From positions 32,001 to 96,000 of the IMG/VR virus record IMGVR_UViG_3300027906_000003: a stretch of DNA of 64,000 bases; one strand, given 5' to 3'. A model generated the notes under the pieces. That model was not told the origin of the DNA, made no database searches, and saw nothing but the letters and a program-made list of their open reading frames with translations. This stretch comes from a virus. Of this stretch, positions 11,388 through 24,749 are shown piece after piece. How positions within the stretch are numbered: position 1 is the first letter of the stretch; every line of letters begins with the position of its first letter. The position numbers were made by a program, and so were the translations under genes.

Positions 11388-11600
11388 ATGGAAGAGTATG
11401 CACAAGTTGAAGGACATTCTAATCTTTTAAGAGATGAAGAATCTTCTGCAATTGTAAATACAGACATTGAACAATGGAAACTTGCAAAACAAAGAAAATT
11501 GCGTTTTCAAAACCAAGCGAAAGAGATAAATAGTTTAAAGAGTGAAGTTGGTGAAATTAAAAACCTACTTAACGATATATTAGGAAAGTTAAATGGCTAA
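11388..11600 (+). CDS. Small coiled-coil protein typically following VrlC-like gene
   Basis: VEGHSNLLRD..S.AIVN motif and C-terminal heptads; overlaps the next start. Confidence 0.7.
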   Translation: MEEYAQVEGHSNLLRDEESSAIVNTDIEQWKLAKQRKLRFQNQAKEINSLKSEVGEIKNLLNDILGKLNG

Positions 11601-13071
11601 AACCGTAGATAATTACAGCACAATAAACGAATTCAGAGAGAGATATAATGAACTTGCCACAGATGTAGGTGAGGTTTCAGGATTAAGACCTGCGTTAGGA
11701 GAAAATCTTGTTGATGCCGTTAACGCAGTAGAAGATAAAGCATTCTATTTTGGAAAGTATAGATATGTTGCAACTGCAGGACAACAAACATTCACAGGTG
11801 CAGATGCAAATGGAAACACTCTTAAATATAAAGGAAATAGAGTTCAAGTATTTAAGAATGGTTCGTTATTAGAAGAACAAACTGATTGGCAGGTTGGTGG
11901 ACTTGCAGGTGCTTTCTATTATGACATACAATTGATATCGGCGGCAAGTGCTAATGATTTAATACAAATCTATGCTTACACAGGTTCTTTTGAAGGAACT
12001 GCTACATCAACTGCAATACTTTCATTCTTTACAGAAACATTACAGAACACAATCTATAACACAAATTCAAATGGTGTTATACTTCAAGGAGATAATTCAT
12101 CTCCTACAACAACCTTACAAGGTGGATATACTTTACAACTTGCAGGTAAAACTTATGCAGAAGATGACCTAACACTTGCAACAGGTAAACTATTAACTGC
12201 ACCTACTATGACTGATGGCACTTTATCAATCGATAATGGTAACATAACAGCTGCGGTCAATGGAACATTCTCAGCACAAGTTCAAGCAGAACACTTAAAA
12301 TCAACAGATGATTTAGAAGTAGCCGAAGATGCAACAATTGGTGGTGACTTAGGAGTCACTGGAACTGCAACAGTAGGAACTTTGTCATCAGGTGGTATAA
12401 CAGGAACAACTGCAAGTTTTACAGGAAATGTAGACTTAGGAAGTGATGCAAATGATACAGTATCAATTCTTGGTGTTGTAGATACAAATATAATGCCTAA
12501 TTCAGATAATACTAGAACATTAGGTTCTTCTACAAAGAGATTTCAGAGTTTACATGCAACAACTATTACTGCAACAACATTAAATGGTGAACTAGTAGGT
12601 AATGTAAAAGGTGATATCCTTAAAGATGACGGAACCAAAATTTTAGAAAACTCAACAGGTGCGTTGACTGGTACCGTTTCTAGTGTTTCAAATCATGCAG
12701 CGTCAGGATTATCAGATATTAATTATACATCATCACCAGCTGCTGGTCAAGTCTTAGCATGGGATGCCTCAAACAATTATTGGGAACCTGTTAACCCTAC
12801 AAATACAACAGACTCAGTATCAGAGGGTTCAAACAATTATTACTTTACAGATGATAGGGTCAATGCAATCATTAATGCTAATGCAGGTTTAGCCAAATCA
12901 TATGCTACCAACACAGGAAATTCTTTGGATGGTGACATAAATATTAGTGTTAACACCGCAGAAGGAGTCAAAATTGATGGTGATAATGTGGTGATGGACA
13001 AAACAATAGTAAGTTCAGCTCCTTCTGGAGTTGGGTCGACATCATCAGGTCACTTATGGTTTGTAGTATAA
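11593..13071 (+). CDS. Tail fibre / whisker-like structural protein
   Basis: Gly/Thr-rich beta repeats, GQVLAWD and TDSVSEGSNNYYFT fibre motifs; ends in ...GHLWFVV. Confidence 0.65.
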   Translation: MAKTVDNYSTINEFRERYNELATDVGEVSGLRPALGENLVDAVNAVEDKAFYFGKYRYVATAGQQTFTGADANGNTLKYKGNRVQVFKNGSLLEEQTDWQVGGLAGAFYYDIQLISAASANDLIQIYAYTGSFEGTATSTAILSFFTETLQNTIYNTNSNGVILQGDNSSPTTTLQGGYTLQLAGKTYAEDDLTLATGKLLTAPTMTDGTLSIDNGNITAAVNGTFSAQVQAEHLKSTDDLEVAEDATIGGDLGVTGTATVGTLSSGGITGTTASFTGNVDLGSDANDTVSILGVVDTNIMPNSDNTRTLGSSTKRFQSLHATTITATTLNGELVGNVKGDILKDDGTKILENSTGALTGTVSSVSNHAASGLSDINYTSSPAAGQVLAWDASNNYWEPVNPTNTTDSVSEGSNNYYFTDDRVNAIINANAGLAKSYATNTGNSLDGDINISVNTAEGVKIDGDNVVMDKTIVSSAPSGVGSTSSGHLWFVV

Positions 13072-13074
13072 ATT

Positions 13075-14469
13075 ATGTCAGAGAAAATTTATGTAAATAC
13101 TGGTTCGACCTTTCAACAACCATTTAATGATAGGTCACCTAAGAATGCTCAGCAACCTTATATAGCTAATGCTCAGACTCCCTATATAGCTAATTCACAA
13201 ACACCCTTTACATATTCAAATAGACAACCTGCAAAGTATCAGAATCCAACTGATGCTCAGCAACCTTATATAGCTAATGCACAACAGTCGTATCCATATA
13301 TTGCTAATGCAAGACAACCTTACATAGCTAACGCACAACAACCTTATCCATATCAGGCAAATAGTCAGAATCCTTATATTGCGAATGCAAGGCAACCTGC
13401 GAAGTATCAACATCCGACATCTTCTCAGACTCCTTACATAGCTAATGCACAGACACCGTATCCTGCTAATGCAAGACAACCTAGTGATTATCAAACACCT
13501 TATATTGCAAATTATCAAACAGCGTATCCTGCAAATGCGAGACAACCTGTAGATGCTCAACAACCTAGTAATAGTCAAACACCATATCCTGCAAATGCTA
13601 GGCAACCTGCAAAATATAGAAACCCATTTACATATAATGCGAGGACTCCAGCATCTTCACAAACTCCTGTAACCTATGATGTGTGGGGTGGGGGAAATGC
13701 TCAATCAACATCACAATTAGAAACCACAACTGATGTGTCAGCACCTATGGCACCCTTTTCACAAACGCCTACTTTTAATTACCAGACTGTAGGTCAACCA
13801 ACATCAATTCATTGGGGTCCAGGTTCAACACATATAAAAAATAGTCCAAATTCATCATATGCTCCAACAACTGCACCTATGATTTGGAGTACCCAGCAAT
13901 ATAACACTTATAATTACAGTTTCGGTTCTTGTTGGGCTCAGTTCTTTATTGGTTATGAATCTAGTTCAGGCAAAGTTTACTACGGTTATGGTGCGGGTAA
14001 TTCTCAATTCGGAGGCACAAGTGTTGGCACCTCTGGTAATAGAGTATATTTACCTTTAACTGAATTAAGTAATAATAATGTTATTGATAGTTCTTGGTCA
14101 ATATCAGTCAAATATACAGTTCAATCACAAAGTATAGTTCAAGGTGGTACATCTTCTCAACATCCAGCTAGTCCGAGTTATGGTACAGGTTTAGCTGCTG
14201 GAACATATGTAAACATATGGGATGGTTCTTCTGTTCAAAGTAGTGGCATTGAAACATTCATGTGGGAGGCGGTATCATCATCTAACCCAGGAAATGGAGA
14301 TGCAAGGGTTTCTGCAAGTGGTGTAGTATTTACAGTTAAGGCACATAAGACTGGTCAAACATCATACTATACACATTATATTGTAGCACAACATGGAGCT
14401 GGTACCAGCTCACCTTTTGGTGAAATATATTTGAGGTCACTCTATGGTAATAACCATGCACCAGTATAA
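13075..14469 (+). CDS. Pro/Tyr/Gln repeat protein A1 (YIAN-type stalk plus C-terminal globular, putative adhesin domain)
   Basis: aa 16-197 are PYIANxQx-type repeats, followed by about 265 aa of non-repetitive aromatic/Ser/Gly-rich sequence. Confidence 0.75.
   Translation: MSEKIYVNTGSTFQQPFNDRSPKNAQQPYIANAQTPYIANSQTPFTYSNRQPAKYQNPTDAQQPYIANAQQSYPYIANARQPYIANAQQPYPYQANSQNPYIANARQPAKYQHPTSSQTPYIANAQTPYPANARQPSDYQTPYIANYQTAYPANARQPVDAQQPSNSQTPYPANARQPAKYRNPFTYNARTPASSQTPVTYDVWGGGNAQSTSQLETTTDVSAPMAPFSQTPTFNYQTVGQPTSIHWGPGSTHIKNSPNSSYAPTTAPMIWSTQQYNTYNYSFGSCWAQFFIGYESSSGKVYYGYGAGNSQFGGTSVGTSGNRVYLPLTELSNNNVIDSSWSISVKYTVQSQSIVQGGTSSQHPASPSYGTGLAAGTYVNIWDGSSVQSSGIETFMWEAVSSSNPGNGDARVSASGVVFTVKAHKTGQTSYYTHYIVAQHGAGTSSPFGEIYLRSLYGNNHAPV
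13120..13665 (+). repeat. Coding tandem repeat, 25 units of 6/8/10 aa (YIAN type)
   Basis: Parsed by hand from the translation; nearly all units begin with Pro. Confidence 0.9.
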
Positions 14470-14483
14470 GGAGATGAGAAGAT

Positions 14484-15200
14484 ATGCCTACAGTTAGTCA
14501 ACCAGTCATAATTCAGCAACCTTATATTGCAAGTGGTCAATCGCCGGTCGATTATAGAGTTCCGTTTACATATCAGGCAAGACAACCTGGAACATATAGA
14601 CACCCCTTTACATATCAAGTTCCGTTTACATATCAGGCAAGACAACCTGGAACATATGATGCAAGGCAACCTGCAAAGTATCAACACCCATTTATATATC
14701 AGGCACGACAGCCTTCTACATATCAGGCAAGACAACCTGCTATATACAGACATCCGGCAGATTATCAAACACCATTTACATATGCTCGTAGACAACCGGC
14801 AACATATGCAAGACAAGGTCAAACTCCGTTTACATATCAAGCAAGAACACCTTTCACATATGATAGACAAGGTCAAACACCATTTACATATCAGGCAAGA
14901 AGTCCGTTTACATACAGAAATCCAACAGACTATCAGACACCTTATATTGCAGATGCAAGACAACCTGGAACATATTCTAATAGACAACCATCCACTTATC
15001 AGAATAGACAACCATTCACATATCAACTTTCGGTTCCAAGCACAAGACCAATAGGTCCTTTGGCAAAAGCAAAACAAGTTTGGGTAAATGATAACGGAAC
15101 TTTAAAAAAGGCAAGTAGTGTATATGTAAATGATGGTGGAACGGCTAAAAAGATACATCAAACACAACCTACAGCACAATTAACAGAACCTAATACCTAG
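14484..15200 (+). CDS. Pro/Tyr/Gln repeat protein B1 (PFTY-type; mirror partner of A1)
   Basis: PFTYQARQ/PGTY repeats; C-terminal VWVNDNG and VYVNDGG motifs; AAGGAG SD upstream. Confidence 0.75.
   Translation: MPTVSQPVIIQQPYIASGQSPVDYRVPFTYQARQPGTYRHPFTYQVPFTYQARQPGTYDARQPAKYQHPFIYQARQPSTYQARQPAIYRHPADYQTPFTYARRQPATYARQGQTPFTYQARTPFTYDRQGQTPFTYQARSPFTYRNPTDYQTPYIADARQPGTYSNRQPSTYQNRQPFTYQLSVPSTRPIGPLAKAKQVWVNDNGTLKKASSVYVNDGGTAKKIHQTQPTAQLTEPNT
14502..15047 (+). repeat. Coding tandem repeat, 25 units of 6/8/10 aa (xTY type)
   Basis: Unit lengths are the reverse of those in 13120-13665. Confidence 0.9.
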
Positions 15201-15213
15201 AGTTCTTTTTTCG

Positions 15214-15221
15214 TATAAATA
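15214..15221 (+). promoter_or_regulatory. T4-type late promoter TATAAATA
   Basis: Exact consensus, 5 nt before ATG 15227. Confidence 0.8.
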
Positions 15222-15226
15222 GTTAT

Positions 15227-15562
15227 ATGGCTATTATCGCAAACTTATATATTGACCAAGGAACAGACTTCACAATTACAGTTGATGTCACAGACGCTGC
15301 TGGAGATGTTCTTAATTTGACTAACTATTCTGCGCTTGCACAAGTAAGAAAAACATATAGTTCTTCTAGTGCTTCAGTAGCATTTACTACTTCGATATCA
15401 GCAGCTCAAGGTCAAGTCACATTAAGTCTAAATGATACACAAACAAAAGCTTTAGAAGCAGGTCGATATGTTTACGATTTAAATATCACAAGTGCTGGTG
15501 GGATAACTACTAGAGTTGTCGAAGGACAAGCAATAGTGACACCAGGAGTAAGTCGGAGTTAA
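15227..15562 (+). CDS. Small Ig-like structural/adaptor protein (BppU-N-like)
   Basis: NLYIDQGTDF...GRYVYDL...TRVVEG..VTPGV pattern common in phage structural modules. Confidence 0.65.
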   Translation: MAIIANLYIDQGTDFTITVDVTDAAGDVLNLTNYSALAQVRKTYSSSSASVAFTTSISAAQGQVTLSLNDTQTKALEAGRYVYDLNITSAGGITTRVVEGQAIVTPGVSRS

Positions 15563-15564
15563 TT

Positions 15565-15807
15565 ATGTCGAACATTAAAGGAACAGTTTCAAGAGTTGTA
15601 GGTATCTCAGGTAGAGTTGGAGGCACAGGAAACATTCGTGCTAAACAAGTCCAAGTTGGTTCAGGTGGAGGTGCAGACTTATCAGCAAAATCTATAAATG
15701 AACTTGCAGATGTTAATGCAACTGAAACAGATGATGGTCTTCTTTCATATGACCAAGCATCAGATAAATGGACAACCACTACTACGATAGACGGCGGAAC
15801 ATTTTAA
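15565..15807 (+). CDS. Small fibre-associated protein ending in DGGTF
   Basis: LADVN...DGLLSYD....KW fibre motif; C-terminus TIDGGTF. Confidence 0.65.
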   Translation: MSNIKGTVSRVVGISGRVGGTGNIRAKQVQVGSGGGADLSAKSINELADVNATETDDGLLSYDQASDKWTTTTTIDGGTF

Positions 15808-15823
15808 AAAGTTTTAATATATT

Positions 15824-16687
15824 ATGGATGAATGGTCACCTTTGCGTGAAATCATTGTAGGCACACTTCAAGGTTTCGAAGAACATAATCACTATTCATC
15901 ATATCATTCCTCAAATAAATTCATTAAATCATTATATGATGAAGCAGAAGAGGGTCTACAAACATTTCAAAAACTATTAGAGAAAGAGGGTGTAATTGTT
16001 CATCGTCCTCGTGGTTTTTGTTATAATGTAAGAGATTGTGCTGTAGTATTAGGTGATACTATTGTTGAGGGTTCTATGAGATATGAAGAAGAGTATCTTT
16101 GGTTGGAATCTTTAAGACCAATATTCTTAGAAAGTGATTTAAATTATTTGATAGGTCCTAAACCCACATGGAAAAATGACGAACCCATATTTGATGGTGC
16201 AAATCTTTGTAAACTAGGAGATAGTGTTCTAATTGCAATTAATGAAACTGCAAATGATAAAGGAAAAATGTGGTTAGAGAAAACATTTCCAAATATAAAC
16301 TTCAATTCAATAAATCTAAAAGAAGATGTATCTCATATAGATACAACTATAGTTCCTATATCTTCTAATACTGTTTTATTAAACTCAAATAGATTAGACG
16401 AAGATACACTTCCATCTGTATTGAATGATTGGAATAAAATATGGGTTAAAGAAGAAGATTTAGTAGATGAAGCTAAAATGTTTGGATTTAAATATGGTGC
16501 AAGTAAGTGGATAGGTATGAATACTCTTTCTCTTAATGAGAATACACTATTCATTAGTGAAGGACAAGTAAAACTTATAGACATATTAGAGAGTAAGAAC
16601 TTTAATTGTATACCTGTTCCTTTAAGATATACCAGAGAACTTTGTGGTGGTTTACATTGTTGCACTTTAGACCTGGTTAGAGAATAG
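15824..16687 (+). CDS. Amidinotransferase (glycine/inosamine-phosphate amidinotransferase family)
   Basis: DEWSPLREIIVG, RD, FDGAN, HIDTT and GGLHCCTLDL motifs supply the Asp-His-Cys catalytic set of the pentein fold. Confidence 0.85.
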   Translation: MDEWSPLREIIVGTLQGFEEHNHYSSYHSSNKFIKSLYDEAEEGLQTFQKLLEKEGVIVHRPRGFCYNVRDCAVVLGDTIVEGSMRYEEEYLWLESLRPIFLESDLNYLIGPKPTWKNDEPIFDGANLCKLGDSVLIAINETANDKGKMWLEKTFPNINFNSINLKEDVSHIDTTIVPISSNTVLLNSNRLDEDTLPSVLNDWNKIWVKEEDLVDEAKMFGFKYGASKWIGMNTLSLNENTLFISEGQVKLIDILESKNFNCIPVPLRYTRELCGGLHCCTLDLVRE

Positions 16688-16693
16688 GATTTG

Positions 16694-16701
16694 TATAAAT
16701 A
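16694..16701 (+). promoter_or_regulatory. T4-type late promoter TATAAATA
   Basis: Exact consensus upstream of a long structured leader. Confidence 0.8.
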
Positions 16702-16715
16702 CTAATACAATCAAT

Positions 16716-16791
16716 GTGCCATTCAGTGAGGCACGAACCTCATAGTGAGAGGATAGCATATATGATTTCAATCTAGGGATAGTGAACTAGA
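16716..16791 (+). ncRNA. Candidate cis-regulatory RNA: three hairpins with AGUGA loops
   Basis: GTGCC-attcAGTGA-GGCAC; CCTC-atAGTGA-GAGG; TCTAG-ggatAGTGAa-CTAGA. Confidence 0.55.
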
Positions 16792-16835
16792 ATTTTGCAA
16801 AATTTTATTAAATATATTTTCTTTAGGAGAGAAAA

Positions 16836-18476
16836 ATGGCAACAGTAATTCAAATCAAACGAAGCACAGGAGTATCCGCACCAGCAGTCTCAGACTTAGC
16901 TGAAGGCGAATTAGCTTATGTGCAGGATAGGTCGAATTCAGGTGCTGGTGCTAAACTATACATCGAATCAGTAGATTCTGATAACTCTACTCCATTAATT
17001 CAAGCAATTGGTGGTAAGTATTATACAGATATCTTAGCTGGTTCAGCTGCGACTCCTGCCAACTTTAAAGTTGGTAATGGTTCAACAGCAGGTGCAAGTT
17101 TACAACTATTAGAAGACAGTGACAACGGAACACATTTCGTTGGATTAAAAGCTGCCGATACAATAGCTTCATCAGTTACCTTTACACTTCCAGCTGCCGA
17201 CGGTTCTGCTAACCAAGTGTTAGGAACAGACGGCTCAGGAACACTTTCGTTCTTATCAACAACATCTACGCTCGCAGGTGCAAGTGATACTAATATCACA
17301 ACACCAGCTGATGCGTCAATGCTTTTATATGACACAGGAACATCGAAATGGATAGACAATGTTATGTCCGGCGATGCTACTATGACAGATGGTGGTGTTT
17401 TAACAATCGCAAACGATGCCGTTGAACAGGCTATGATTGCAGACGACGCTGTTGGTGCAGACCAACTTGCGGCTTCAGCAGTTGTATTTGGTTCATTAGC
17501 AGGTGCGATGGTACAAACATCAGGTGAATCATTTAGTGATGACGATGTCTCATTAATGACTTCAGCTGCAATCTTGGACAAAATCCAAGCAACTGCAACA
17601 CTAGAAGACTTAGATGTCGCTGGTGATTCAGGAACAGGTGCAGTAGATTTAGACTCACAATCATTAACAATCGCTGGTACAGCGAACGAGATTGAAACAT
17701 CTGCTAGTGGACAAACTATAACAGTTGGTCTTCCTAACAATGTGACAGTCGCAAACAATTTAACCGTTTCAGGAAACTTAATATCAGACGATATTACAAC
17801 TGCAACTTTAACAACATCTGGTAACTTAACAGTCACAGGAAACTTGGCCGTTAACGGAACTACAACTACAGTAAACTCAACAACAGTAAATATTGCTGAC
17901 CCTGTATTTGAAATTGGTGACGATTCATCAGATGACAACCTAGACAGAGGTATTAAATTTAAATACAACTCTGGTGGTGCAAAGATTGGTTTCTTCGGAA
18001 TGGATGATACTGACGGTTCTTTTGTTGCTCTATCAAGTGCAACAGATAGTTCATCAGTATTCTCTGGAACTGCAATGGCAGGTAAATTCGGCAACTTAAC
18101 AGCTGCTGGTTTAGCAATGTCAGGAAGTATTTCTTCTTATGCAGGTTCAGCTCCAACAGATGGACAGTTATTAATAGGTGATACAGCTTCAGGAATAATG
18201 GACGCTGCTACTCTTACTGCTGGTGATGGTATTGACATCACTAACGGTGCAGGTGCAATTACGATTGCTACCGAAGTGGGTACTGCTTCTAACTTAGGTT
18301 CTGTAATTATCGCAGTTGGGGAAGGCATGGATGTGGCTTACTCAGGTGGTACTGCTACTCTTTCAGGAGAGGATGCAACTACAACCAATAAAGGTATTGC
18401 AAGTTTTGCTACAGCAAACTTTACAGTATCAAGTGGTGCGGTTTCTATCACAGGTATCGATGGCGGTACATTTTAA
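16836..18476 (+). CDS. Major fibre/filament subunit (IQIKRS N-domain, DGGTF C-terminus)
   Basis: MATVIQIKRS...LAEGELA N-terminus, GNLTVTGNLAVNGTTTTVNST fibre motif, strong AGGAG SD. Confidence 0.7.
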   Translation: MATVIQIKRSTGVSAPAVSDLAEGELAYVQDRSNSGAGAKLYIESVDSDNSTPLIQAIGGKYYTDILAGSAATPANFKVGNGSTAGASLQLLEDSDNGTHFVGLKAADTIASSVTFTLPAADGSANQVLGTDGSGTLSFLSTTSTLAGASDTNITTPADASMLLYDTGTSKWIDNVMSGDATMTDGGVLTIANDAVEQAMIADDAVGADQLAASAVVFGSLAGAMVQTSGESFSDDDVSLMTSAAILDKIQATATLEDLDVAGDSGTGAVDLDSQSLTIAGTANEIETSASGQTITVGLPNNVTVANNLTVSGNLISDDITTATLTTSGNLTVTGNLAVNGTTTTVNSTTVNIADPVFEIGDDSSDDNLDRGIKFKYNSGGAKIGFFGMDDTDGSFVALSSATDSSSVFSGTAMAGKFGNLTAAGLAMSGSISSYAGSAPTDGQLLIGDTASGIMDAATLTAGDGIDITNGAGAITIATEVGTASNLGSVIIAVGEGMDVAYSGGTATLSGEDATTTNKGIASFATANFTVSSGAVSITGIDGGTF

Positions 18477-18503
18477 TAACGCTTAATCTAACGGAGAATT
18501 CAG

Positions 18504-19331
18504 ATGGCAACAGTAATACAATTCAAAAGAAGTTCTACTCAGAATAGTGTTCCTGCTACTAGTGATTTAGCACTAGGTGAATTAGCAGTCAACACTTACC
18601 ACGGTAGATTCTATACTGAAAAGAACGATGGTTCTGCTTCAGTTGTAGAAGTTGGGTCTAACCCAGCATCTCTTACTGTTAACGACGCATTCTCATTCCC
18701 AACTGCTGACGGTTCTTCGAATCAGGTCTTAAAGACTAATGGTTCAGGAACTTTAGCGTGGTCAGACCAACCAAGTTCAGGCATGGTAGTATTTACATAT
18801 ACAATGTCTGGCACTACAACATCAATCACAGGTAATGATGATAGTTCAAACTCATTATCATATACAAGTGGTTCAGAATCAGTATACATCAACGGTGTTA
18901 AATTAGTTGGAGGTGGTGCAGACTATACTGCAACTAGCTCAACAGTTATAACACTTGCTGAGAATGCTGTATCTGGTGATGTTGTTCAGGTTGTTGCAAT
19001 AACAGCGGCTAGTAATCTAGTCCAAGGTTTCTTCACAACAGGAAGCTTTACAGCTACTACTGCAGACCAGGTCTTATCATCAAACGCAGTTGCGAACAAG
19101 GCAGTTAAGTATGTTATTAACGCCACACACGCGTCAGCAGGAACTCACGCAGCTGAGGTCCTACTGATTAATAATGGTACAAATTCATATTTTGTGCAAT
19201 ACGGTGATGTTTATTCATCATCTTCATTGTTTACTTTGAGTTCAGATATTGATTCAGGAAACATGAGATTACTCGTGACTCCTGCCAATACTAACACAAC
19301 GATAGACACTTTCCAAATTAGACATAGTTAA
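18504..19331 (+). CDS. Fibre subunit (IQFKRS N-domain, C-terminal beta-sandwich)
   Basis: N-terminus paralogous to 16836; C-domain paralogous to 19342 and 19844. Confidence 0.7.
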   Translation: MATVIQFKRSSTQNSVPATSDLALGELAVNTYHGRFYTEKNDGSASVVEVGSNPASLTVNDAFSFPTADGSSNQVLKTNGSGTLAWSDQPSSGMVVFTYTMSGTTTSITGNDDSSNSLSYTSGSESVYINGVKLVGGGADYTATSSTVITLAENAVSGDVVQVVAITAASNLVQGFFTTGSFTATTADQVLSSNAVANKAVKYVINATHASAGTHAAEVLLINNGTNSYFVQYGDVYSSSSLFTLSSDIDSGNMRLLVTPANTNTTIDTFQIRHS

Positions 19332-19341
19332 GGAGTAGAAA

Positions 19342-19752
19342 ATGGCTAAAACAAACGCATTTAAAATCGCTGAGTTAATAAGAGTTTTCTCTTATGATTC
19401 ATCTGCTGATGTTATCACTACTTCTAAGGAACTAGATACTAAACATAGAACTTCAAGTTCTTTGACAACAACTGCAACTACAGAGGTAAATTTAGATACC
19501 TTTGCTCATGCTTCTTATAGAGCAGCGAGATACATTGTGGCAATGTCAAAGGGTTCTGATTTCCATTCTACAGAGATAGTATTAGTTCATGACGGAAGTG
19601 CGGTGACAATGACTCAGTATGGCACACTCAAATCGGCCACTTTGGCATCATTTGATTCAGATATTTCTGGTTCAGATGCACGATTGAGGGTAACTCCAGC
19701 GTCAAGCAGTTCTACGGTTATTAATATTCATAGAGTATTAGTTTCAGCGTAA
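19342..19752 (+). CDS. Small structural protein (YRAARY...VHDG...TQYG domain)
   Basis: Paralogous to the C-domains of 18504 and 19844; AAGGAG SD. Confidence 0.65.
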   Translation: MAKTNAFKIAELIRVFSYDSSADVITTSKELDTKHRTSSSLTTTATTEVNLDTFAHASYRAARYIVAMSKGSDFHSTEIVLVHDGSAVTMTQYGTLKSATLASFDSDISGSDARLRVTPASSSSTVINIHRVLVSA

Positions 19753-19771
19753 GACTTCTTTATATTATTCG

Positions 19772-19798
19772 AAAGGGGAACTTAGTTCCCCTTTTTTT
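19772..19798 (+). terminator. Rho-independent terminator
   Basis: AAAGGGGAAC-TTA-GTTCCCC followed by a T run. Confidence 0.85.
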
Positions 19799-19811
19799 GG
19801 TCTACAAATCT

Positions 19812-19819
19812 TATAAATA
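19812..19819 (+). promoter_or_regulatory. T4-type late promoter TATAAATA
   Basis: Exact consensus just after the terminator. Confidence 0.8.
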
Positions 19820-19843
19820 GTATAACACAAGAGATTCTTTTAT

Positions 19844-20680
19844 ATGGCAACAAAATCTAAATTTTATGCAGACTTAGGATTAGAATCAGCAAGTAATTTG
19901 CAAGTTGATGGTAATGCAACCATTACAGGTAATTTAACTGTAAACGGAACAACCGTGACAGTTAATAGTGCCACAACTTCTGTTGCTGATTCAATGTTAG
20001 AACTTGCAAACGGCAATACATCGTCAGATACACTAGACATTGGGTTCTACGGAAACTATAATGACGGTATTGGTAGTGAAAGTGGTGTTTCAGAATATAC
20101 AGGACTCTTTAGAGATGCAAGTGATTCAACATGGAAACTATTTGATGGTTTAGAAGTAGAACCAACTTCAACTGTTAATGTTTCAGGAACAAATTATGCA
20201 CTTGCAGACATGCAGGTAGGTGACTTGACAGCAACAACTCTTACTGCAACAAACAGTATTACAGGTGCTTCGATAGTCTTTCCAACCAGTGACGGAACTA
20301 GTGGACAAGCTATTGTGACTAATGGTTCAGGAACTTTATCATTTGAGACCGTCTCAGGTGGTTTAGATGGTGGAACATTGACAACAACTTCAACTTCTGA
20401 AACTACAATGGATAGTTTTGTAATATCAACATATAGAAGTGGAAAATACCAAATCTCAATATCAGATTCAACTAGTGGAGATTATCAACAAACAGAAATC
20501 TCAGTAGTTCATGACGGAACGAGTGCCTACTTTACCCAATACGGAACGATAACAACAGATACAAGTGAATTGGCAACATTTGGAGTTGATATAAATATCA
20601 ATACCTTACGAATCAGGATAACTCCTGCTTCATCTAATTCAACTGTATTTAAATTTAAGAAAATACTTGTAGATATTTAA
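19844..20680 (+). CDS. Fibre subunit
   Basis: GNLTVNGTTVTVNS motif, FRDASD..WKLF, C-terminal YRSGKY...VVHDG...TQYG domain. Confidence 0.7.
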   Translation: MATKSKFYADLGLESASNLQVDGNATITGNLTVNGTTVTVNSATTSVADSMLELANGNTSSDTLDIGFYGNYNDGIGSESGVSEYTGLFRDASDSTWKLFDGLEVEPTSTVNVSGTNYALADMQVGDLTATTLTATNSITGASIVFPTSDGTSGQAIVTNGSGTLSFETVSGGLDGGTLTTTSTSETTMDSFVISTYRSGKYQISISDSTSGDYQQTEISVVHDGTSAYFTQYGTITTDTSELATFGVDININTLRIRITPASSNSTVFKFKKILVDI

Positions 20681-20710
20681 ATTTAGTCCGTGCCGAGAGG
20701 ACACAACTAT

Positions 20711-20718
20711 TATAAATA
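20711..20718 (+). promoter_or_regulatory. T4-type late promoter TATAAATA
   Basis: Exact consensus in an intergenic gap. Confidence 0.75.
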
Positions 20719-20754
20719 TCTGTATACTAACACATTCTAAACTAGGACAGATAT

Positions 20755-21015
20755 ATGGCAACAACAAATACATTTGTAGTAGAATACGGATTGACAGTTG
20801 GAACAACCGAAGTTATAAATTCATCAGGAAAGATACAAGCGGCAGCTATTTCAACCTTAGATTCTGATGACCTTTCGGAAGGTTCTACAAATCAATATTT
20901 TACTAACGCGAGAGCAAGAGGGTCTATATCCTTAGCTTCTGGAGAGACAAATCTCAGTTATAATTCTACATCTGGAGAACTTAGTCTACCAACAGTTAAC
21001 GGAGGTACCATCTAA
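20755..21015 (+). CDS. Short fibre linker protein
   Basis: FVVEYGL N-motif, DDLSEGSTNQYFTNARA motif, NGGTI C-terminus. Confidence 0.65.
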   Translation: MATTNTFVVEYGLTVGTTEVINSSGKIQAAAISTLDSDDLSEGSTNQYFTNARARGSISLASGETNLSYNSTSGELSLPTVNGGTI

Positions 21016-23084
21016 TGGCGGGTGAAAAGAACTTTAATATTAAAAATGGACTATCAGTTCAAGGCGTAGAAGTAATAAACTCGTCTGGTGACTTAGTTGC
21101 CGGCGGAGTTGGAACAGCAGTTCAAGAGGCCATTGCAGATAAAATCGGTGGAATACTCAGTGCAACAGGTGGTGCAACTGCAACATACAATGATGGTGCA
21201 GACACTATCGTTATTGATGTTCCAATTACAGATGAAGATAACATGGCATCAAACAGTGCTACTGCTATTCCTTCACAACAATCAGTCAAAGCATATGTAG
21301 ACTCTCAAATCTTAACAAAAGACAATACAGATGAGATAACAGAGGGTTCAACTAATTTATATTTCACAAACGCAAGAGCAGATGCCAGAATTGCAAACGC
21401 AATCAAAGATGAAGATAACATGGCATCAGATAGTGCAACTCATGTTCCTTCACAACAATCTGTTAAGGCTTTTGTAGCCACACAACTTGCAACTAAAGAC
21501 GCATTATCAGAACTTTCAGGTGATTCAGACGATATCACAGAGGGTACAACAAACTTATTCCATACATCTGAAAGAGTTGCAGATGTTGTTGGAGGAATGG
21601 TGACTTCAAATACCGAATCTGGTATAACAGTCACATATGAGGATGGTGATAACACTTTAGACTTTGCAATAGGAACACTAAACCAAAACACAACAGGTTC
21701 AGCAGCTACTCTAACAACTCCAAGAGCAATTTCAGGTACCAACTTTGATGGTTCTGCAGACATTACTTTAACGACTGCCGGAATAACAGAAAACACAAAT
21801 CTCTACTATACAAACGAAAGAGTTGATGATAGAGTCAACGCATTATTGACTGCTGGTACTAACATAACAACATCATACGATGATGCAAATGGTACCTTAA
21901 CAATTAACTCTTCAGGTAAAACAGAAGAAGAAATTGAAGACATTGTAAACGGATTAGTTGTTGGTGGAACAGGAATATCATCAACATATGATGACGCTGC
22001 TGGAACATTAACACTTGCAACTTCTATTACACAATATGCAGATTCAGATGCTAGAGGTGCTATCTCAGTCACAGATTCAGGTGGAGATGGTAGTTTAGCA
22101 TATAATAACTCAACAGGTGTAATAACTTATACAGGACCAAGTGCATCAGAAGTAAGAGCTCATCTAAGTGCTGGAACTGGTGTATCATATTCAGGTGGTG
22201 CAATCAGTATTGGTCAGGCAGTTTCAACTTCTTCAGATGTCACATTTGGGGATATAGCTGCAACAGATATAACACTATCTGGAAACTTAACAGTTAATGG
22301 TACCACAACAACAGCTGCTTCTACTAACACAGTAATCACAGATAGATTGATTGAGTTAGGAAACGGAACAACAGGAACACCAGCAAATGATATGGGTCTT
22401 GTCTTCGAAAGAGGAAGTTCAGACAATGTATTTGTAGGTTGGGACGAAAGTGCAGACGCTGTTACCGTAGGAACAGGTTCATTTACAGGTGCTAGCACAG
22501 GTGATTTAACACATACAGTAGCTAACTTTACTGCTGGTGTTGGAACATTTGCCTCATTAGATATTTCAGGAAACGCAGACATTGACGGAACAATGGAAGC
22601 AGATGCGTATACAGTTGACGGAACTGCATTAAACGAATACATTGCCGATACAGTTGGTGCAATGGTATCGTCAAATACTGAAAGTGGCATCACAGTTGCT
22701 TATCAAGACGGAGACAATACATTAGACTTTACAATCGGAACACTTAACCAAAACACTACAGGTTCAGCGGCAACATTAACAACAGCCAGAGCAATAGCAT
22801 TAGGTGGAGATTTATCAGGTTCTGCAAACTTTGATGGTTCTGCAGATATAACAATTACTGCTACAGTAGCAGATGATTCACACAATCATACAATTGCAAA
22901 TGTAGATGGACTACAAACTGCATTAGATTCAAAATATGATTCAGGTGATAATATTGCAGCGGGAACAATAACAACAACGAATGCAAGTAATTCGGGTGGA
23001 TATGTAAGAAATGTATATCAGTCAACATCTAATCCAGGCAGTAGTGATGGTGCAGTTGGTGACTTATGGATATTATACAGTTAA
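21015..23084 (+). CDS. Long fibre protein with internal duplications
   Basis: FNIKNGL N-motif. DEDNMAS...PSQQSVKA occurs twice and SNTESGITV...NQNTTGSAATLTT twice. Ends GDLWILYS. Confidence 0.7.
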   Translation: MAGEKNFNIKNGLSVQGVEVINSSGDLVAGGVGTAVQEAIADKIGGILSATGGATATYNDGADTIVIDVPITDEDNMASNSATAIPSQQSVKAYVDSQILTKDNTDEITEGSTNLYFTNARADARIANAIKDEDNMASDSATHVPSQQSVKAFVATQLATKDALSELSGDSDDITEGTTNLFHTSERVADVVGGMVTSNTESGITVTYEDGDNTLDFAIGTLNQNTTGSAATLTTPRAISGTNFDGSADITLTTAGITENTNLYYTNERVDDRVNALLTAGTNITTSYDDANGTLTINSSGKTEEEIEDIVNGLVVGGTGISSTYDDAAGTLTLATSITQYADSDARGAISVTDSGGDGSLAYNNSTGVITYTGPSASEVRAHLSAGTGVSYSGGAISIGQAVSTSSDVTFGDIAATDITLSGNLTVNGTTTTAASTNTVITDRLIELGNGTTGTPANDMGLVFERGSSDNVFVGWDESADAVTVGTGSFTGASTGDLTHTVANFTAGVGTFASLDISGNADIDGTMEADAYTVDGTALNEYIADTVGAMVSSNTESGITVAYQDGDNTLDFTIGTLNQNTTGSAATLTTARAIALGGDLSGSANFDGSADITITATVADDSHNHTIANVDGLQTALDSKYDSGDNIAAGTITTTNASNSGGYVRNVYQSTSNPGSSDGAVGDLWILYS

Positions 23085-23104
23085 TAACTGTAAGGTGAAA
23101 ATAA

Positions 23105-23977
23105 ATGGTAACAGGTAATCAAAAGGTTAAAACCCCAGCTGGTTGGAATTCAACTAGAGGGGCTTGGGTTAAGACTGCATCAGACACATGGACAGATGTT
23201 GACCAGATTTATGTAAAAACTCCAACAGGTTGGAATAATGCGTCAGGTCAGGCAATTACTCAGAACCCTTACCCATATATTGCGAATAATCAAACCCCTT
23301 ATATTGCTAATGCTCAACAGCCTTATCCTTATATTGCGAATAACCAGACTCCATATATTGCAAATGGTCAACAACCATATCCGTATATAGCAAACAGTCA
23401 GACTCCTTATATAGCAAACGGTCAACAACCTTATCCATATCAGGCAAATAGTCAGACTCCTTATATTGCTAACGCACAACAACCGTATCCATATATTGCG
23501 AATAGTCAATCACCATATATTGCTAATGCAAGACAACCTGCAAAATATCAGAATCCTGTAAATGGACAACAACCCTATATTGCAAATGGTCAAAGAAATG
23601 AGTCATACAGAAATCCTGTAAACTATCAGACACCTTATATTGCAAATGCTAGACAACCTGCACATTATAGGAATCCTGTAAGTTATCGTGTGCCTTATAT
23701 TGCAAATGGTCAACAACCATTTACCTATAATGCAAGGTATCCGGCAACATATCCGGCAAATGCTCAGCAACCATTCACCTACAATGCAAGGTATCCTGCA
23801 ACATATCCGGCAAATGCAAGACAACCATTTACATATAATGCAAGATATCCTGCAAATGCAACATATCCTGCAAACGGACAACAACCGTCTACATATCCGT
23901 TCTTGTATAATGCACCTTATCCATTCTTCCAACCATTTGGTGGCGGCGGTGGTTCACCTAACATGAACTTGAAATAA
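23105..23977 (+). CDS. Pro/Tyr/Gln repeat protein A2 (YIAN-type)
   Basis: Three VKT..W motifs at the N-terminus, then 26 repeat units. Confidence 0.75.
   Translation: MVTGNQKVKTPAGWNSTRGAWVKTASDTWTDVDQIYVKTPTGWNNASGQAITQNPYPYIANNQTPYIANAQQPYPYIANNQTPYIANGQQPYPYIANSQTPYIANGQQPYPYQANSQTPYIANAQQPYPYIANSQSPYIANARQPAKYQNPVNGQQPYIANGQRNESYRNPVNYQTPYIANARQPAHYRNPVSYRVPYIANGQQPFTYNARYPATYPANAQQPFTYNARYPATYPANARQPFTYNARYPANATYPANGQQPSTYPFLYNAPYPFFQPFGGGGGSPNMNLK
23267..23884 (+). repeat. Coding tandem repeat, 26 units of 6/8/10 aa
   Basis: (10,8)x5,(6,6,8)x3,8,10,8,10,8,6,6. Confidence 0.9.
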
Positions 23978-24011
23978 TGGAGTATATAATGAATAAAACG
24001 GAGAACACACA

Positions 24012-24749
24012 ATGGCTATAGGATTTTACTGGACAAGTGCTCAAGGTAACACTAGGTCACCGTTTACTTATCAAGTCCCATTTACATATCGTGTGCCTTA
24101 CATTGCAAATGGTAGGTCACCATTTACTTATCAAGCATCATATCGTGTGCCTTATATTGCGAATGGTAGAAGTCCTTTCACATATCAAGCATCATATCGT
24201 GTGCCTTACATTGCAAATGGTAGGTCACCGTTTACATATAATGCAAGGTATCCGGCAGGTTATAGAAATCCGGTAAGTTATCGAGTTCCGTTTACATATT
24301 CAAATAGACAACCTGCATTATATCAGAATCCTGTAATTTATCAAGTTCCGTTTACTTACAACAATAGGTCTCCGTTTACATACAGAAACCCTGTAGATTA
24401 TAGAATACCGTTTACATATCAGTCAAGACAACCAGGCACATATCAGAGAACAGGACAAACTCCATTCACTTATCAGAATAGACAACCTGGAACATATGAA
24501 ACACAAGGTCAAACACCATTTACCTATCAAAACAGGCAACCAGGAACATATGATAGGCAAGGACAGACTCCATTCACTTATCAGAATAGACAACCTGGAA
24601 CATATGCAAGACAAGGTCAGACTCCATTCACTTATCAGAATAGACAACCTGGAACATATGCTACACAAGGTAGAACACCAGTGTCTCGTTGGGATGGAGT
24701 TTTATCACAAACTTGGCCAGCAGCTCCGTTTGATGCTACAAACTCATAA
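24012..24749 (+). CDS. Pro/Tyr/Gln repeat protein B2 (PFTY-type; mirror partner of A2)
   Basis: PFTY/PGTY repeats; GGAG SD upstream. Confidence 0.75.
   Translation: MAIGFYWTSAQGNTRSPFTYQVPFTYRVPYIANGRSPFTYQASYRVPYIANGRSPFTYQASYRVPYIANGRSPFTYNARYPAGYRNPVSYRVPFTYSNRQPALYQNPVIYQVPFTYNNRSPFTYRNPVDYRIPFTYQSRQPGTYQRTGQTPFTYQNRQPGTYETQGQTPFTYQNRQPGTYDRQGQTPFTYQNRQPGTYARQGQTPFTYQNRQPGTYATQGRTPVSRWDGVLSQTWPAAPFDATNS
24060..24677 (+). repeat. Coding tandem repeat, 26 units of 6/8/10 aa
   Basis: 6,6,8,10,8,10,8,(8,6,6)x3,(8,10)x5, the exact reverse of A2. Confidence 0.9.

What the first reader, a model, noticed from the sequence alone, without database searches (positions are those of the whole stretch)
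11593..24749. 3:1 symmetry adaptor: each A/B pair supplies exactly three hairpin motifs next to a fibre ending in G(H/D)LW
Seen: the gene directly upstream of each pair ends similarly (11593: APSGVGSTSSGHLWFVV; 21015: NPGSSDGAVGDLWILYS). Pair 2 has three related motifs, all at the A2 N-terminus (KVKTPAGW, WVKTASDTW, IYVKTPTGW). Pair 1 also totals three but splits them: one at the A1 N-terminus (IYVNTGS) and two at the B1 C-terminus (VWVNDNG, VYVNDGG). These would only be co-located if the chains are antiparallel, which independently supports the duplex model. Inference: the three motifs complement the three GxLW ends of a homotrimeric fibre, conceptually like monomeric gp38 capping trimeric gp37 in T2-type phages.
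Basis: partly seen in the sequence, partly recalled or inferred. Interest (0 to 1): 0.75.

Follow-up and report, generated by a model that had tools for sequence, protein, structure and literature searches.

The report
Three-hairpin plug docking onto tail-fibre ends
Two tail-fibre genes of an uncultured marine T4-like phage end in a conserved short tail, and the odd two-protein fibres encoded next to them carry exactly three small hairpin motifs that most likely plug onto it, a joint that turns out to be widespread and apparently undescribed in marine phages.

Summary
All quoted strings sit at the ends of the six genes. They are conserved in 42 of 42 related viral loci that have an upstream gene.

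New here: the motifs belong to a much wider pair of modules.
- **Socket:** a C-terminal tail (..ST..PSGGxxGD[VIL]W.xY) found only at the extreme end of fibres (120 of 120).
- **Plug:** three tandem ~14-residue hairpin units, fixed in number (103 of 120 score three, 15 more by eye, none with a real fourth).

The two modules travel together. 19 of 20 assessable GDVWIKY-ended fibres have a hairpin protein within two genes. 18 of 19 hairpin proteins have the socket upstream.

Profile comparisons tie fibre 2's end (98%), A1's N-terminus (91%) and B1's C-terminus (79%) to these modules. A2 (26%) and fibre 1 (under 5%) match only weakly.

The docking reading is well supported.

The scan had found the mirror pairs on other DNA before. 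A word search of its notes returned no note on the docking rule from other genomes.

The parts
11593..13071 (+). Fibre 1 gene (492 aa), upstream of pair 1
   Evidence: ORF. No Pfam, PHROG or PDB match. Called a fibre from its position in the tail-fibre cluster between the VrlC-like 2235-aa gene and the neck genes.
13015..13068 (+). Fibre 1 C-terminal tail SAPSGVGSTSSGHLWFVV (type-1 'socket')
   Evidence: A24, P25, G29, S30, T31 and G34-H-L-W-F-V39 are invariant in 9 of 9 type-1 fibre ends. Similarity to the canonical GDVWIKY tail is not significant (probability 0.7%). Similarity to the type-2 tail is weak (E 0.009).
13075..13122 (+). A1 N-terminus MSEKIYVNTGSTFQQP = hairpin unit 1 of a split triple
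   Evidence: hhalign against the canonical triple-hairpin family: probability 91.5%, E 8.7e-7, positions 1-16 on 1-16. I5, N8 and G10 are invariant in 9 of 9.
13120..13683 (+). A1 repeat region (Pro-bounded units of 6, 8 or 10 residues)
   Evidence: Segmentation (residues 16-203). The unit-length order mirrors that of B1.
13684..14466 (+). A1 C-terminal non-repeat domain (about 260 aa), presumed distal tip
   Evidence: No Pfam family. The C-terminal parts of A homologues vary widely, while their N-termini are conserved.
14484..15200 (+). B1 gene (238 aa); repeats at residues 7-190
15072..15155 (+). B1 C-terminal hairpin units 2 and 3 (..KQVWVNDNGTLKKA SSVYVNDGGTAKKI..)
   Evidence: hhalign against the canonical triple: probability 78.6%, E 1.7e-5. 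phrog_13729 matches residues 195-227 (E 2.4e-5). These are the two best unit-HMM hits in the whole genome (15.9 and 15.6 bits), but both units were in the HMM's training set.
21015..23084 (+). Fibre 2 gene (689 aa)
   Evidence: Matches PHROG tail-fibre families. Residues 517-617 resemble the C-terminal stalk of phage L Dec (6e3c, E 0.0014).
22962..23081 (+). Fibre 2 C-terminal connector (last 40 aa, ..RNVYQSTSNPGSSDGAVGDLWILYS; type-2 'socket')
   Evidence: hhalign against 25 GDVWIKY-type fibre ends: probability 98.1%, E 1.2e-13 over 37 columns. It lies at the extreme C-terminus in 120 of 120 listed database relatives. It is conserved on otherwise unrelated shafts.
23123..23251 (+). A2 N-terminal three motifs (residues 7-49), a divergent triple-hairpin plug
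   Evidence: V8-K-T-P, G13-W14, W21-V-K-T24, W29, Y36, K38-T-P40 and G42-W43 are invariant in 22 of 22. The V-K-T triads are 14 and 15 residues apart, as in the canonical triple, whose modal spacing is 14. hhalign against the canonical triple: probability 25.7%, E 7.4e-4.
23105..23977 (+). A2 gene (290 aa)
24012..24749 (+). B2 gene (245 aa)
   Evidence: Its unit lengths are the exact reverse of A2's.
24678..24746 (+). B2 conserved C-terminal tail PVSRWDGVLSQTWPAAP.., at the same end of the duplex as the A2 plug
Evidence: R26, W27, D28, W35 and P36 are invariant in 22 of 22.

Best explanation
**Proposed mechanism**

The two fibres end in a short C-terminal 'socket' tail. The distal segment encoded next to each fibre docks on it through a 'plug' of exactly three tandem beta-hairpin units of about 14 residues each.
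- In pair 2, all three units are at the N-terminus of A2.
- In pair 1, the plug is split. Unit 1 is the N-terminus of A1, and units 2-3 are the C-terminus of B1.
- A and B zip together antiparallel, so these two termini lie at the same, proximal end, and the plug exists only once the duplex has formed.
- The opposite end, carrying the variable C-terminal domain of A, points away from the virion.

Three units in one particle facing one threefold-symmetric fibre end is the simplest reading. It is a pseudo-threefold adaptor that puts a non-trimeric tip on a trimeric shaft. In principle this is what S16/T2 gp38 does with three Trp-tipped helices.

**Shown**
- The modules exist and are conserved.
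- The unit number is fixed at three.
- Socket and plug are linked in both directions across unrelated viral contigs.
- The A/B repeat regions are mirror-matched.

**Inferred**
- Physical contact between plug and socket.
- The trimeric state of the fibres.
- One plug per fibre end.
- Which end is proximal.
For: 1. **Conservation and strict pairing of types.** 31 of 31 and 11 of 11 fibres pair with the matching A/B type, none crossed. The termini are conserved while repeat lengths range from about 170 to 548 residues.
2. **The socket is a terminal module.** It sits at the extreme C-terminus in 120 of 120 listed relatives out of 562 hits. It sits on unrelated shafts. It is homologous to GDVWIKY-type ends (probability 98.1%).
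3. **Forward sample, chosen only by a DNA pattern for GDVWIKY.**
   - It gave 32 distinct contexts. 26 are at a fibre's end and 6 are chance internal hits.
   - 6 of the 26 are cut by the locus edge.
   - Of the 20 assessable, 19 have a hairpin-array protein within two genes downstream. 11 are adjacent. 8 lie after one intervening gene, a 737-933-aa protein in seven loci and a 322-aa one in L294/L093. Only L308 has none.
   - Unit counts for the 11 adjacent proteins (2-bit cut-off): nine score three, and L295 and L332 score two and one, which I read as three by eye.
   - Unit counts for the 8 second-gene proteins: three score three. Five score two at the 4-bit cut-off; the four N-terminal ones look by eye like the ~100-aa family whose third unit is degenerate but keeps its Trp.
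4. **Reverse sample, chosen only by a pattern for one hairpin unit.** It gave 26 new loci, of which 7 are not assessable. 18 of the other 19 have a socket-ended ORF within two genes upstream (15 GD[IV]W, 3 GDI[YH]). L364 has none.
5. **Control.** Of 37 ORFs picked by a regex for the start of the Gly-rich domain in loci fetched through L068's Gly_rich_2 protein, only the one behind a GDVWIKY fibre has the triple.
6. **The number is fixed.** In the 120 best hits of a triple-hairpin profile, the unit HMM at 2 bits or more finds 3 units in 103, 2 in 16 and 4 in 1. Of the 16, 15 show a degenerate third unit by eye. The fourth hit in the last one is a weak, distant one. 67 triples are N-terminal and 36 C-terminal. 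Shuffled sequences give 0 hits in 116 and 1 in 4.
7. **The window's motifs map onto this module**.
8. **Antiparallel pairing.** A against reversed B exceeds all 200 shuffles in 40 of 46 pairs.
9. **Precedent for a monomer docking by three equivalent contacts on a fibre trimer:** S16 gp37-gp38 (PMC6851490, passages of section 2.7).
10. **AF2 model of a 101-aa triple-hairpin protein.** It shows six strands forming three hairpins, but at pLDDT of about 59 in that region.
Against:
- AF2 of the A2 N-terminus alone is poor (pLDDT 51.7). It shows one long hairpin, not three.
- The A2 motifs are only weakly like the canonical units (probability 25.7%). The unit HMM misses them and also misses the A1 motif (-0.2 bits, rank 14 of the hits on 434 frames).
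- Fibre 1's end is not significantly like the canonical socket.
- The profile used has three units, so proteins with one or two units are under-sampled. Only the absence of longer arrays is informative.
- Five of the nine adjacent proteins that score three units supplied the training units of the unit HMM.
- Many of the A/B loci are close relatives. 'Three' therefore rests on two A/B lineages plus the wider family.
- The oligomeric state of the fibres and of A/B is unknown. A3B3 with nine hairpins is not excluded.
- B2 carries an extra conserved tail at the same end, so the joint of pair 2 has more than three elements.
Confidence: 0.6

Rival explanations
1. The joint is real but symmetric. A and B (or the other hairpin proteins) are themselves trimeric, so three copies of the triple (nine hairpins) surround the fibre end. 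The triple is then just a small beta-sheet domain, not a symmetry adaptor.
For: Lectin-like domains such as PF13385, seen on 26 of the 120 hairpin proteins, also occur in trimeric fibres; that last point is recalled, not tested.
Against: A trimeric partner would not need its unit count fixed at three, yet no real fourth unit was seen. In pair 1 the triple is built from one unit on A and two on B, which fits one heterodimer supplying one complete triple. Some partners carry folds that are usually single-chain, for example the Kelch-like repeats in L090.
Confidence: 0.2
2. The proteins encoded downstream are assembly chaperones rather than virion parts. They would bind the fibre's C-terminal tail transiently to help it trimerise, like T4 gp38 or lambda/Mu Tfa.
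For: Their position directly after the fibre gene matches that of Tfa and T4 gp38 (recalled). The L068 protein has a weak match to phrog_863 'tail fiber assembly' (E 4e-6).
Against: A and B are long, mirror-matched, fibre-like proteins of up to 739 aa, with variable C-terminal domains. Many hairpin proteins carry lectin-like or glycine-rich domains typical of adhesins. No chaperone family was found for A or B.
Confidence: 0.1
3. The hairpin array is an independent binding module, for example for host glycans, like cell-wall-binding hairpin repeats. Or it is only a folding nucleus for the A/B duplex. Its neighbourhood to GxLW-ended fibres would then reflect shared ancestry of gene cassettes, not contact.
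For: Tandem aromatic-rich hairpins bind ligands in other systems (recalled). The array can sit at either terminus.
Against: The association holds in both directions, across different cargo domains, and across two- and three-gene arrangements. Gly-rich proteins not preceded by a socket fibre lack the array. The socket is always the last residues of the fibre, as expected for a joint. There are no Pfam cell-wall-binding repeat hits.
Confidence: 0.07
4. Chance or compositional resemblance of short beta-strand-like strings.
For: The units are short. Two of the five comparisons of window elements with the canonical modules are not significant (fibre 1's end against the canonical socket, probability 0.7%; A2's N-terminus against the canonical triple, 25.7%). 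So is the comparison of the two fibre ends with each other (4.6%).
Against: The residues are invariant in all homologues while the flanks vary. hhalign gives probabilities of 98.1%, 91.5% and 78.6%. Shuffled controls give no arrays.
Confidence: 0.03

Closest known systems
Salmonella phage S16 / T2-type long tail fibre tip: gp37 trimer capped by one gp38 adhesin (PDB 6F45; PMC6851490 section 2.7, passages read)
   Same: A non-trimeric tip protein, encoded next to the fibre gene, attaches to the end of a homotrimeric fibre. It uses three equivalent elements within one chain, each bearing a conserved Trp, placed every 120 degrees. Conserved Trp residues also mark units of the plug here (W14, W29 and W43 in A2; W13, W27 and W41 in the 100-aa family).
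   Different: gp38 uses a three-helix bundle, whereas here the units are beta-hairpins. No sequence relation was found: there is no PDB hit for the plug profile or the fibres, and no Pfam family. Here the plug can sit at either terminus, and in pair 1 it is split over two chains. Contact and stoichiometry are solved for gp38 but untested here.
T4 long tail fibre joints gp34-gp35-gp36-gp37, with monomeric gp35 between trimers (recalled from the literature; PMC3004832 was seen only in a search listing)
   Same: Serial fibre segments are encoded by neighbouring genes, and a trimer-to-monomer mismatch occurs at a joint.
   Different: No sequence similarity was tested or found. The T4 joints are not known to use a tandem hairpin triple (recalled).
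Intramolecular chaperone 'tentacle' hairpins of K1F tailspike and T5 fibre, and Alteromonas phage chaperone caps (PMC10579305, passages read)
   Same: Three beta-hairpins embrace the distal end of a trimeric fibre. The protein is encoded at or after the fibre's C-terminus.
   Different: There the three hairpins come from three identical chains with an alpha-helical core, and the cap is removed or transient. Here the three hairpins are tandem in one chain (or split 1+2) and are attached to adhesin-like or fibre-like cargo.
Host recognition cluster of pelagimyophages and cyanomyophages (Zaragoza-Solas et al. 2020, PMC7029224, passages read)
   Same: The genomic setting is the same. The window's capsid protein is 64-68% identical to those of Melnitz, HTVC008M and Mosig. 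The fibre cluster lies between a VrlC-like giant gene and the neck genes.
   Different: In the passages I read (a term search for 'tail fiber', 'host recognition', 'repeat', 'proline' and 'glycine-rich'), the paper does not describe the A/B repeat pairs, the socket tail or the hairpin triple. Its supplements could not be seen.

Membership tests
Triple-hairpin 'plug' module (unnamed; PHROGs 25859, 21772, 36019 and 13729, all 'unknown function') | Tandem ~14-residue units of the form h-Y-V-x-x-x-G-x-W-K at a protein terminus | tested here: met
   A1 N-terminus against the canonical family: probability 91.5%. B1 C-terminus: 78.6%, plus phrog_13729 at E 2.4e-5. For A2 the test is inconclusive: probability 25.7%, E 7.4e-4, and the unit HMM is silent.
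Triple-hairpin 'plug' module | Exactly three units per docking particle | tested here: met
   A2 has three invariant motifs in 22 of 22. Pair 1 has one unit on A plus two on B, kept in 9 of 9 and 8 of 8. In the wider family 103 of 120 score three, none has a real fourth unit, and none has five or more.
Triple-hairpin 'plug' module | Encoded within two genes downstream of a fibre that ends in the socket tail | tested here: met
   In the window, both pairs directly follow such fibres. In the family, 19 of 20 forward and 18 of 19 reverse.
C-terminal 'socket' tail of fibres (..R.I..ST..PSGGxxGD[VIL]W.xY) | Profile similarity to GDVWIKY-type ends, and location at the extreme C-terminus | tested here: met
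   Fibre 2: probability 98.1%, E 1.2e-13, terminal in 120 of 120 relatives. Fibre 1 is inconclusive: it is terminal and conserved, but scores probability 0.7% against the canonical ends and 4.6% against type 2.
gp38-type adhesin (T2/S16) | Sequence relation to gp38: N-terminal helical attachment domain, beta-helix, polyglycine-II sandwich | tested here: not met
   No PDB chain matched the plug profile at E up to 1. The fibres matched nothing but Dec. There is no Pfam family for A1, A2, B1 or B2.
gp38-type adhesin (T2/S16) | One adhesin per gp37 trimer | not testable with these tools
No experimental data exist.
Split Mtd_N-like fibre N-terminal domain (my own idea) | The fibre tail aligns to the first half, and the hairpin to the second half, of the N-terminal domain of the window's MATVIQ[IF]KRS fibres | tested here: not met
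   hhalign probabilities are 2.4%, 0.1%, 0.1% and 0.3%.
Tail fibre assembly chaperones (Tfa / T4 gp38 type) | Match to a chaperone family | tested here: not met
   No such Pfam or PHROG hit for A1, A2, B1 or B2. Only the unrelated L068 protein has a weak phrog_863 hit.
Cell-wall / choline-binding hairpin repeats | Pfam repeat match | tested here: not met
   No Pfam hit on the hairpin regions.

The most novel reading that the evidence does not exclude
Marine phages share a universal plug-and-socket system for swapping fibre tips. The socket is a roughly 25-residue C-terminal tail on trimeric fibres. The plug is a strictly three-unit beta-hairpin array that gives any single-chain cargo a pseudo-threefold foot. 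Cargoes seen include lectin-like adhesins, Kelch-like propellers, 100-aa adaptors and the mirror-coded A/B two-chain fibre. In pair 1 the plug is deliberately split 1+2 between the N-terminus of A and the C-terminus of B. Only a correctly zipped antiparallel heterodimer can then dock, which would act as a built-in assembly checkpoint.
Probability: 0.4. Interest if true: 0.8.

Novelty: new variant of a known kind. Interest (0 to 1): 0.66.

Why it matters
Host range of tailed phages is set at fibre tips. How non-trimeric tip proteins are fastened to trimeric shafts is solved for essentially one case, gp37-gp38.

If the reading is right, a short and easily recognised sequence pair marks which neighbouring proteins are mounted on which fibre, in abundant uncultured marine myophages whose fibres are otherwise unannotatable. 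It would give a rule for annotating receptor-binding proteins in viral metagenomes. It would also offer a compact module for attaching foreign binding domains to fibres.

For the A/B pairs, it supplies independent topological evidence that the two chains run antiparallel, and it identifies which end is proximal.

Tried and rejected
**1. Split Mtd_N-like domain.** I suspected that the fibre tail plus the hairpin together rebuild the N-terminal domain seen on the window's MATVIQ[IF]KRS fibres. hhalign does not support this.

**2. 'One or three' rule.** I first read the large proteins after half of the GDVWIKY fibres (N-terminus M..YYVDYEG..) as single-hairpin, presumably trimeric, partners.
- hhalign shows no likeness to the hairpin (probability 0.6% and 1.5%).
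- These loci turned out to carry a separate small triple-hairpin protein one gene further on, so I dropped the idea.
- L307's 933-aa protein has no Pfam or PDB match.

**3. Cultured relatives.** None was found in the 'phages' collection.
- megablast of the region: nothing.
- tblastn of A1: nothing.
- tblastn of B1 and A2 hit only a Pseudomonas phage protein. Its SAASNTGxx repeats show the match is compositional.
- tblastn of two hairpin proteins: nothing.
- BLAST's low-complexity filter may hide repeat matches.

**4. Representative search.** My 100-residue query was dominated by a common HxH shaft module. Only a few hits informed on the tail.
- tblastn with P0082 was likewise dominated by that module.
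- Two single-chain internal forms (P0103, P0088) are a by-eye lead only.

**5. ESM Atlas.** Only unnamed viral clusters below 0.9.

**6. Single-chain AF2.** The A2 N-terminus and a 101-aa hairpin protein gave pLDDT 51.7 and 48.6. That is too low for fold searches, which I did not run.

**7. Loci from P0113 and P0107.** They gave only one further socket-ended ORF (L164), because most loci did not reach the fibre's end.

**8. Literature.** Four full-text searches and passages of PMC7029224, PMC6851490, PMC10579305 and PMC12143355 turned up no description of the triple hairpin or the socket tail. Other papers were seen as listings only. No supplements were seen.

**9. Scan notes.** A word search of the scan's notes found nothing on this docking rule.

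Full report
**Setting**

The window is bases 32001-96000 of a 123,820-base viral record. Its major capsid protein is 64-68% identical to those of the Methylophilales phage Melnitz and the Pelagibacter phages HTVC008M and Mosig.

The finding lies in the fibre cluster that follows a 2235-aa gene. This matches the 'host recognition cluster' described for pelagimyophages, between VrlC and the neck genes (PMC7029224, passages).

The six genes are:

| Gene | Coordinates | Length |
|---|---|---|
| Fibre 1 | 11593-13071 | 492 aa |
| A1 | 13075-14469 | 464 aa |
| B1 | 14484-15200 | 238 aa |
| Fibre 2 | 21015-23084 | 689 aa |
| A2 | 23105-23977 | 290 aa |
| B2 | 24012-24749 | 245 aa |

Pfam has nothing above its cut-offs for any of them. 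PHROGs places fibre 2 among tail-fibre families. It matches B1 residues 195-227 to phrog_13729, of unknown function.

**Observation**

The positions 11593 and 21015 given in the finding are gene starts, not the positions of the strings.

A search with A2 in viral contigs returned 59 loci. All carry adjacent pairs of the same Pro/Tyr-rich repeat proteins. Two types recur.
- **Type 2.** The fibre ends ..SDGAVGD[LM]W[IV][LY]YS. A begins with the three V-K-T..W motifs. B ends RWDGxLSQxWPxTP.
- **Type 1.** The fibre ends ..GSTxTGHLWFV[IV]. A begins MSDEI[YF]xNTG. B ends with two V[YF]VNDxGT units and KIHQSVPTAQ.

One search examined 46 distinct pairs, the window's two included. Many are near-identical and so not independent.
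- 31 of 31 GD[LM]W fibres go with type-2 A.
- 11 of 11 GHLW fibres go with type-1 A/B.
- None is crossed, and 4 loci have no upstream ORF.

The motif residues are invariant in 22 of 22 (A2-type), 9 of 9 (A1-type) and 8 of 8 (B1-type) distinct termini. The repeat regions meanwhile range from about 170 to 548 residues.

The last 38 residues or so of type-2 fibres are conserved on shafts that are otherwise unrelated.

**Antiparallel premise**

The earlier notes of this scan pointed me to the mirror rule, and I checked it myself. I cut the repeat regions at Pro-bounded units of 6, 8 or 10 residues. The order of unit lengths in A2 is then the reverse of that in B2, and likewise for A1 and B1.

Across 46 pairs, the alignment score of A against reversed B exceeds every one of 200 shuffles in 40 pairs. 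The six failures are L044, L048, L061, L062, L065 and L067, mostly where my segmentation breaks down or an ORF is truncated. The N-terminus of A and the C-terminus of B therefore lie at the same end of the duplex.

**The socket is a general terminal module**

A word-based search with the last 45 residues of fibre 2 found 562 proteins at E up to 0.01. In all 120 listed, the GD[LM]W.. string is the extreme C-terminus.

The exhaustive representative search was swamped by a common shaft module. It still showed other fibres ending ..ST..PSGGxxGD[IV]W[IL].Y, and two proteins with an internal single-chain version.

Profile comparison makes fibre 2's tail homologous to 25 GDVWIKY-type tails (probability 98.1%, E 1.2e-13). 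Fibre 1's tail is not significantly similar to them (0.7%). It is only weakly similar to type 2 (4.6%, E 0.009).

**The plug is a general module with a fixed number of units**

Loci fetched with P0147, an unrelated GDVWIKY-ended fibre, showed downstream proteins that carry three tandem units of the form h-Y-V-N-x-G-G-x-W-K.
- They sit at the N-terminus in L068, L090, L101 and L110, and at the C-terminus in L108. L164 was added.
- Their other domains differ: Gly_rich_2, Kelch-like repeats, cadherin-like, or none known.

A profile of these triples found 221 proteins at E up to 0.001, among the 8000 candidates that were scored.
- A single-unit HMM at 2 bits or more counted three units in 103 of the 120 listed, two in 16 and four in 1. 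Shuffled copies gave none in 116 and one in 4.
- Of the 16 'twos', 15 have a visibly degenerate third unit. The single 'four' owes its fourth hit to a weak match far away.
- 67 triples are N-terminal and 36 are C-terminal. The modal unit spacing is 14 residues.
- Caveat: a three-unit profile under-samples shorter arrays. The informative result is the absence of longer ones.
- No PDB chain matches the profile at E up to 1.

**Linkage in both directions**

*Forward sample.* A DNA pattern for GDVWIKY found 46 loci, giving 32 distinct ORF contexts.
- 6 are chance internal hits in unrelated ORFs, and 26 lie within two residues of a stop.
- 6 of the 26 are cut by the locus edge (L301, L303, L319, L326, L327, L334).
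- Of the 20 assessable, 11 have the triple in the adjacent downstream ORF.
- 8 have it one gene further on. In seven of these the intervening protein is 737-933 aa, and in L294/L093 it is 322 aa.
- L308 has none.
- Unit HMM on the 11 adjacent proteins at 2 bits: three units in 9, two in L295 and one in L332, both of which I read as three by eye. Five of the nine supplied training units.
- Unit HMM on the 8 second-gene proteins: three score three units (L304 and L305, L093). Five score two at the 4-bit cut-off. The four N-terminal ones among these five (L307, L321, L323, L328) look by eye like the ~100-aa family of alignment A7, whose third unit is degenerate but keeps its Trp. I did not align them to it.

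*Reverse sample.* A pattern for the unit YVNVNGTWK found 29 loci, 26 of them new.
- 7 are not assessable. Four are cut, and in three only the large intervening protein is visible.
- 18 of the other 19 have a socket-ended ORF within two genes upstream (15 with GD[IV]W, 3 with GDI[YH]).
- L364 has none.

*Control.* Among 37 ORFs picked by a regex for the start of the Gly-rich domain, in loci fetched through L068's Gly_rich_2 protein, only the one behind a GDVWIKY fibre has the triple.

**Placing the window's motifs**

| Window element | Compared with | Result |
|---|---|---|
| A1-type N-termini | Unit 1 of the canonical triple, from the initiator Met on | Probability 91.5%, E 8.7e-7 |
| B1-type C-termini | Two canonical units | Probability 78.6%, E 1.7e-5 |
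| A2-type N-termini | Canonical triple, units 2-3 on units 2-3 | Probability 25.7%, E 7.4e-4 |

The spacing of A2's V-K-T triads (14 and 15 residues) matches the canonical period. Against this, the unit HMM gives the A1 motif -0.2 bits, and no A2 motif is among its 25 best hits on the genome's frames or reaches 0 bits in A2.

Each window system is thus tied strongly to the general joint on one side: the socket for pair 2, and the plug for pair 1. Each is tied only weakly on the other side.

**Mechanism**

The simplest model is a plug-and-socket joint at the distal (C-terminal) end of the fibres. It has three hairpin units per docked particle.
- In pair 2, all three units come from A2, and B2's conserved tail lies beside them.
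- In pair 1, one unit comes from A1 and two from B1, so the plug is complete only in the antiparallel heterodimer.

Several things argue that the three units face the three chains of one fibre end:
- the fixed number of three,
- the occurrence of the triple on single-chain-type cargo,
- the precedent of gp38, which docks on the gp37 trimer with three Trp-tipped helices placed 120 degrees apart (PMC6851490, section 2.7).

This last step is inference.
- The fibres' trimeric state rests on a weak match of fibre 2 to the Dec stalk (E 0.0014) and on general knowledge.
- Single-chain AF2 models were poor. The A2 N-terminus gave pLDDT 51.7 with one long hairpin. A 101-aa hairpin protein gave pLDDT 48.6, with six strands forming three hairpins at about 59.

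**Comparison and novelty**

In working principle this is closest to gp37-gp38, but none of gp38's sequence or fold features was found.
- The module is absent from Pfam.
- It appears only in function-unknown PHROGs.
- No solved chain matches it by sequence.
- I found no paper describing it (searches; passages; supplements not seen).

I file it as a new variant of a known kind: a non-trimeric tip on a trimeric fibre. The heterodimeric 1+2 split is its most unusual feature.

The mirror pairs themselves were already noted and followed up by this scan on other genomes. A word search of the notes returned none on the docking rule from other genomes.

Noticed in passing
L304, L305, L307, L310, L321, L323, L328, L343, L350, L353, L357, L362, L365; proteins P0297-P0348: A three-gene arrangement: a socket-ended fibre, then a protein of about 740-970 aa (N-terminus M..YYVDYEG.AGTGDG, C-terminus ..FDDL.VSQA, no Pfam or PDB match), then a ~100-aa protein. 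The small protein carries the hairpin triple plus a duplicated LDxLDFxLP motif. In some versions (P0329, P0352, P0382) the two halves are in the opposite order. It may be an adaptor between the fibre and the large protein.
   Followed up: partly
L020, L023, L030, L039, L046, L047, L058, L065, L066 (C-termini of A homologues): Several A proteins end in a domain with ..F[FV].NG[MIV]L[AV]HN.. near the C-terminus. This recalls Hint / bacterial intein-like domains. That is recalled, not tested.
   Followed up: no
L039 and L041 (L040, L042, L043 are their duplicates): The gene order is fibre-B-A instead of fibre-A-B, with the same conserved termini.
   Followed up: no
L044:5727-9101: The A ORF stops inside its repeats at 285 aa, about 900 bases before B (536 aa). 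The mirror test fails here. This could be a frameshift or a repeat collapse in assembly.
   Followed up: no
window 22563-22865 (fibre 2 residues 517-617): A repeated shaft module with DDSHNH resembles the C-terminal stalk of the phage L decoration protein Dec (6e3c, E 0.0014). The same module dominates thousands of database fibres (3383 hits at E up to 0.001).
   Followed up: partly
L346, L358, L361: Socket variants in which the Trp is replaced: ..GDIYFKHS, ..GDIYFKYS and ..GDIHLKYID. They are still followed by hairpin proteins.
   Followed up: partly
P0103 residues 67-105; P0088 from residue 676; N-termini of Gly-rich ORFs in L242 and L260: Single-chain forms in which a P..P.NGD[LF]W strand is followed in the same protein by one hairpin-like stretch. 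This is possibly the unsplit ancestor of the joint. Seen by eye only.
   Followed up: no
window 16836-18476 and 18504-19331, and homologues in 25 loci: Other fibres of the cluster share an N-terminus MATVIQ[IF]KRS..P..SDL..GELA.. (weak Mtd_N hit, E 0.046) and end in ..IDGGTF or ..FQIRHS. They may use other kinds of joint.
   Followed up: partly
L340 (PQ287279.1 32413-33735): The only hit of B1 and A2 in cultured phages is a Pseudomonas phage protein made of SAASNTGxx repeats. This is a compositional match, not a relative.
   Followed up: yes
window 20755-21015: An 86-aa ORF overlaps the start of fibre 2 by one base (ATGA). It shares the N-terminal pattern of neighbouring fibre genes (..EYGLTVG..INSSGK..).
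   Followed up: no
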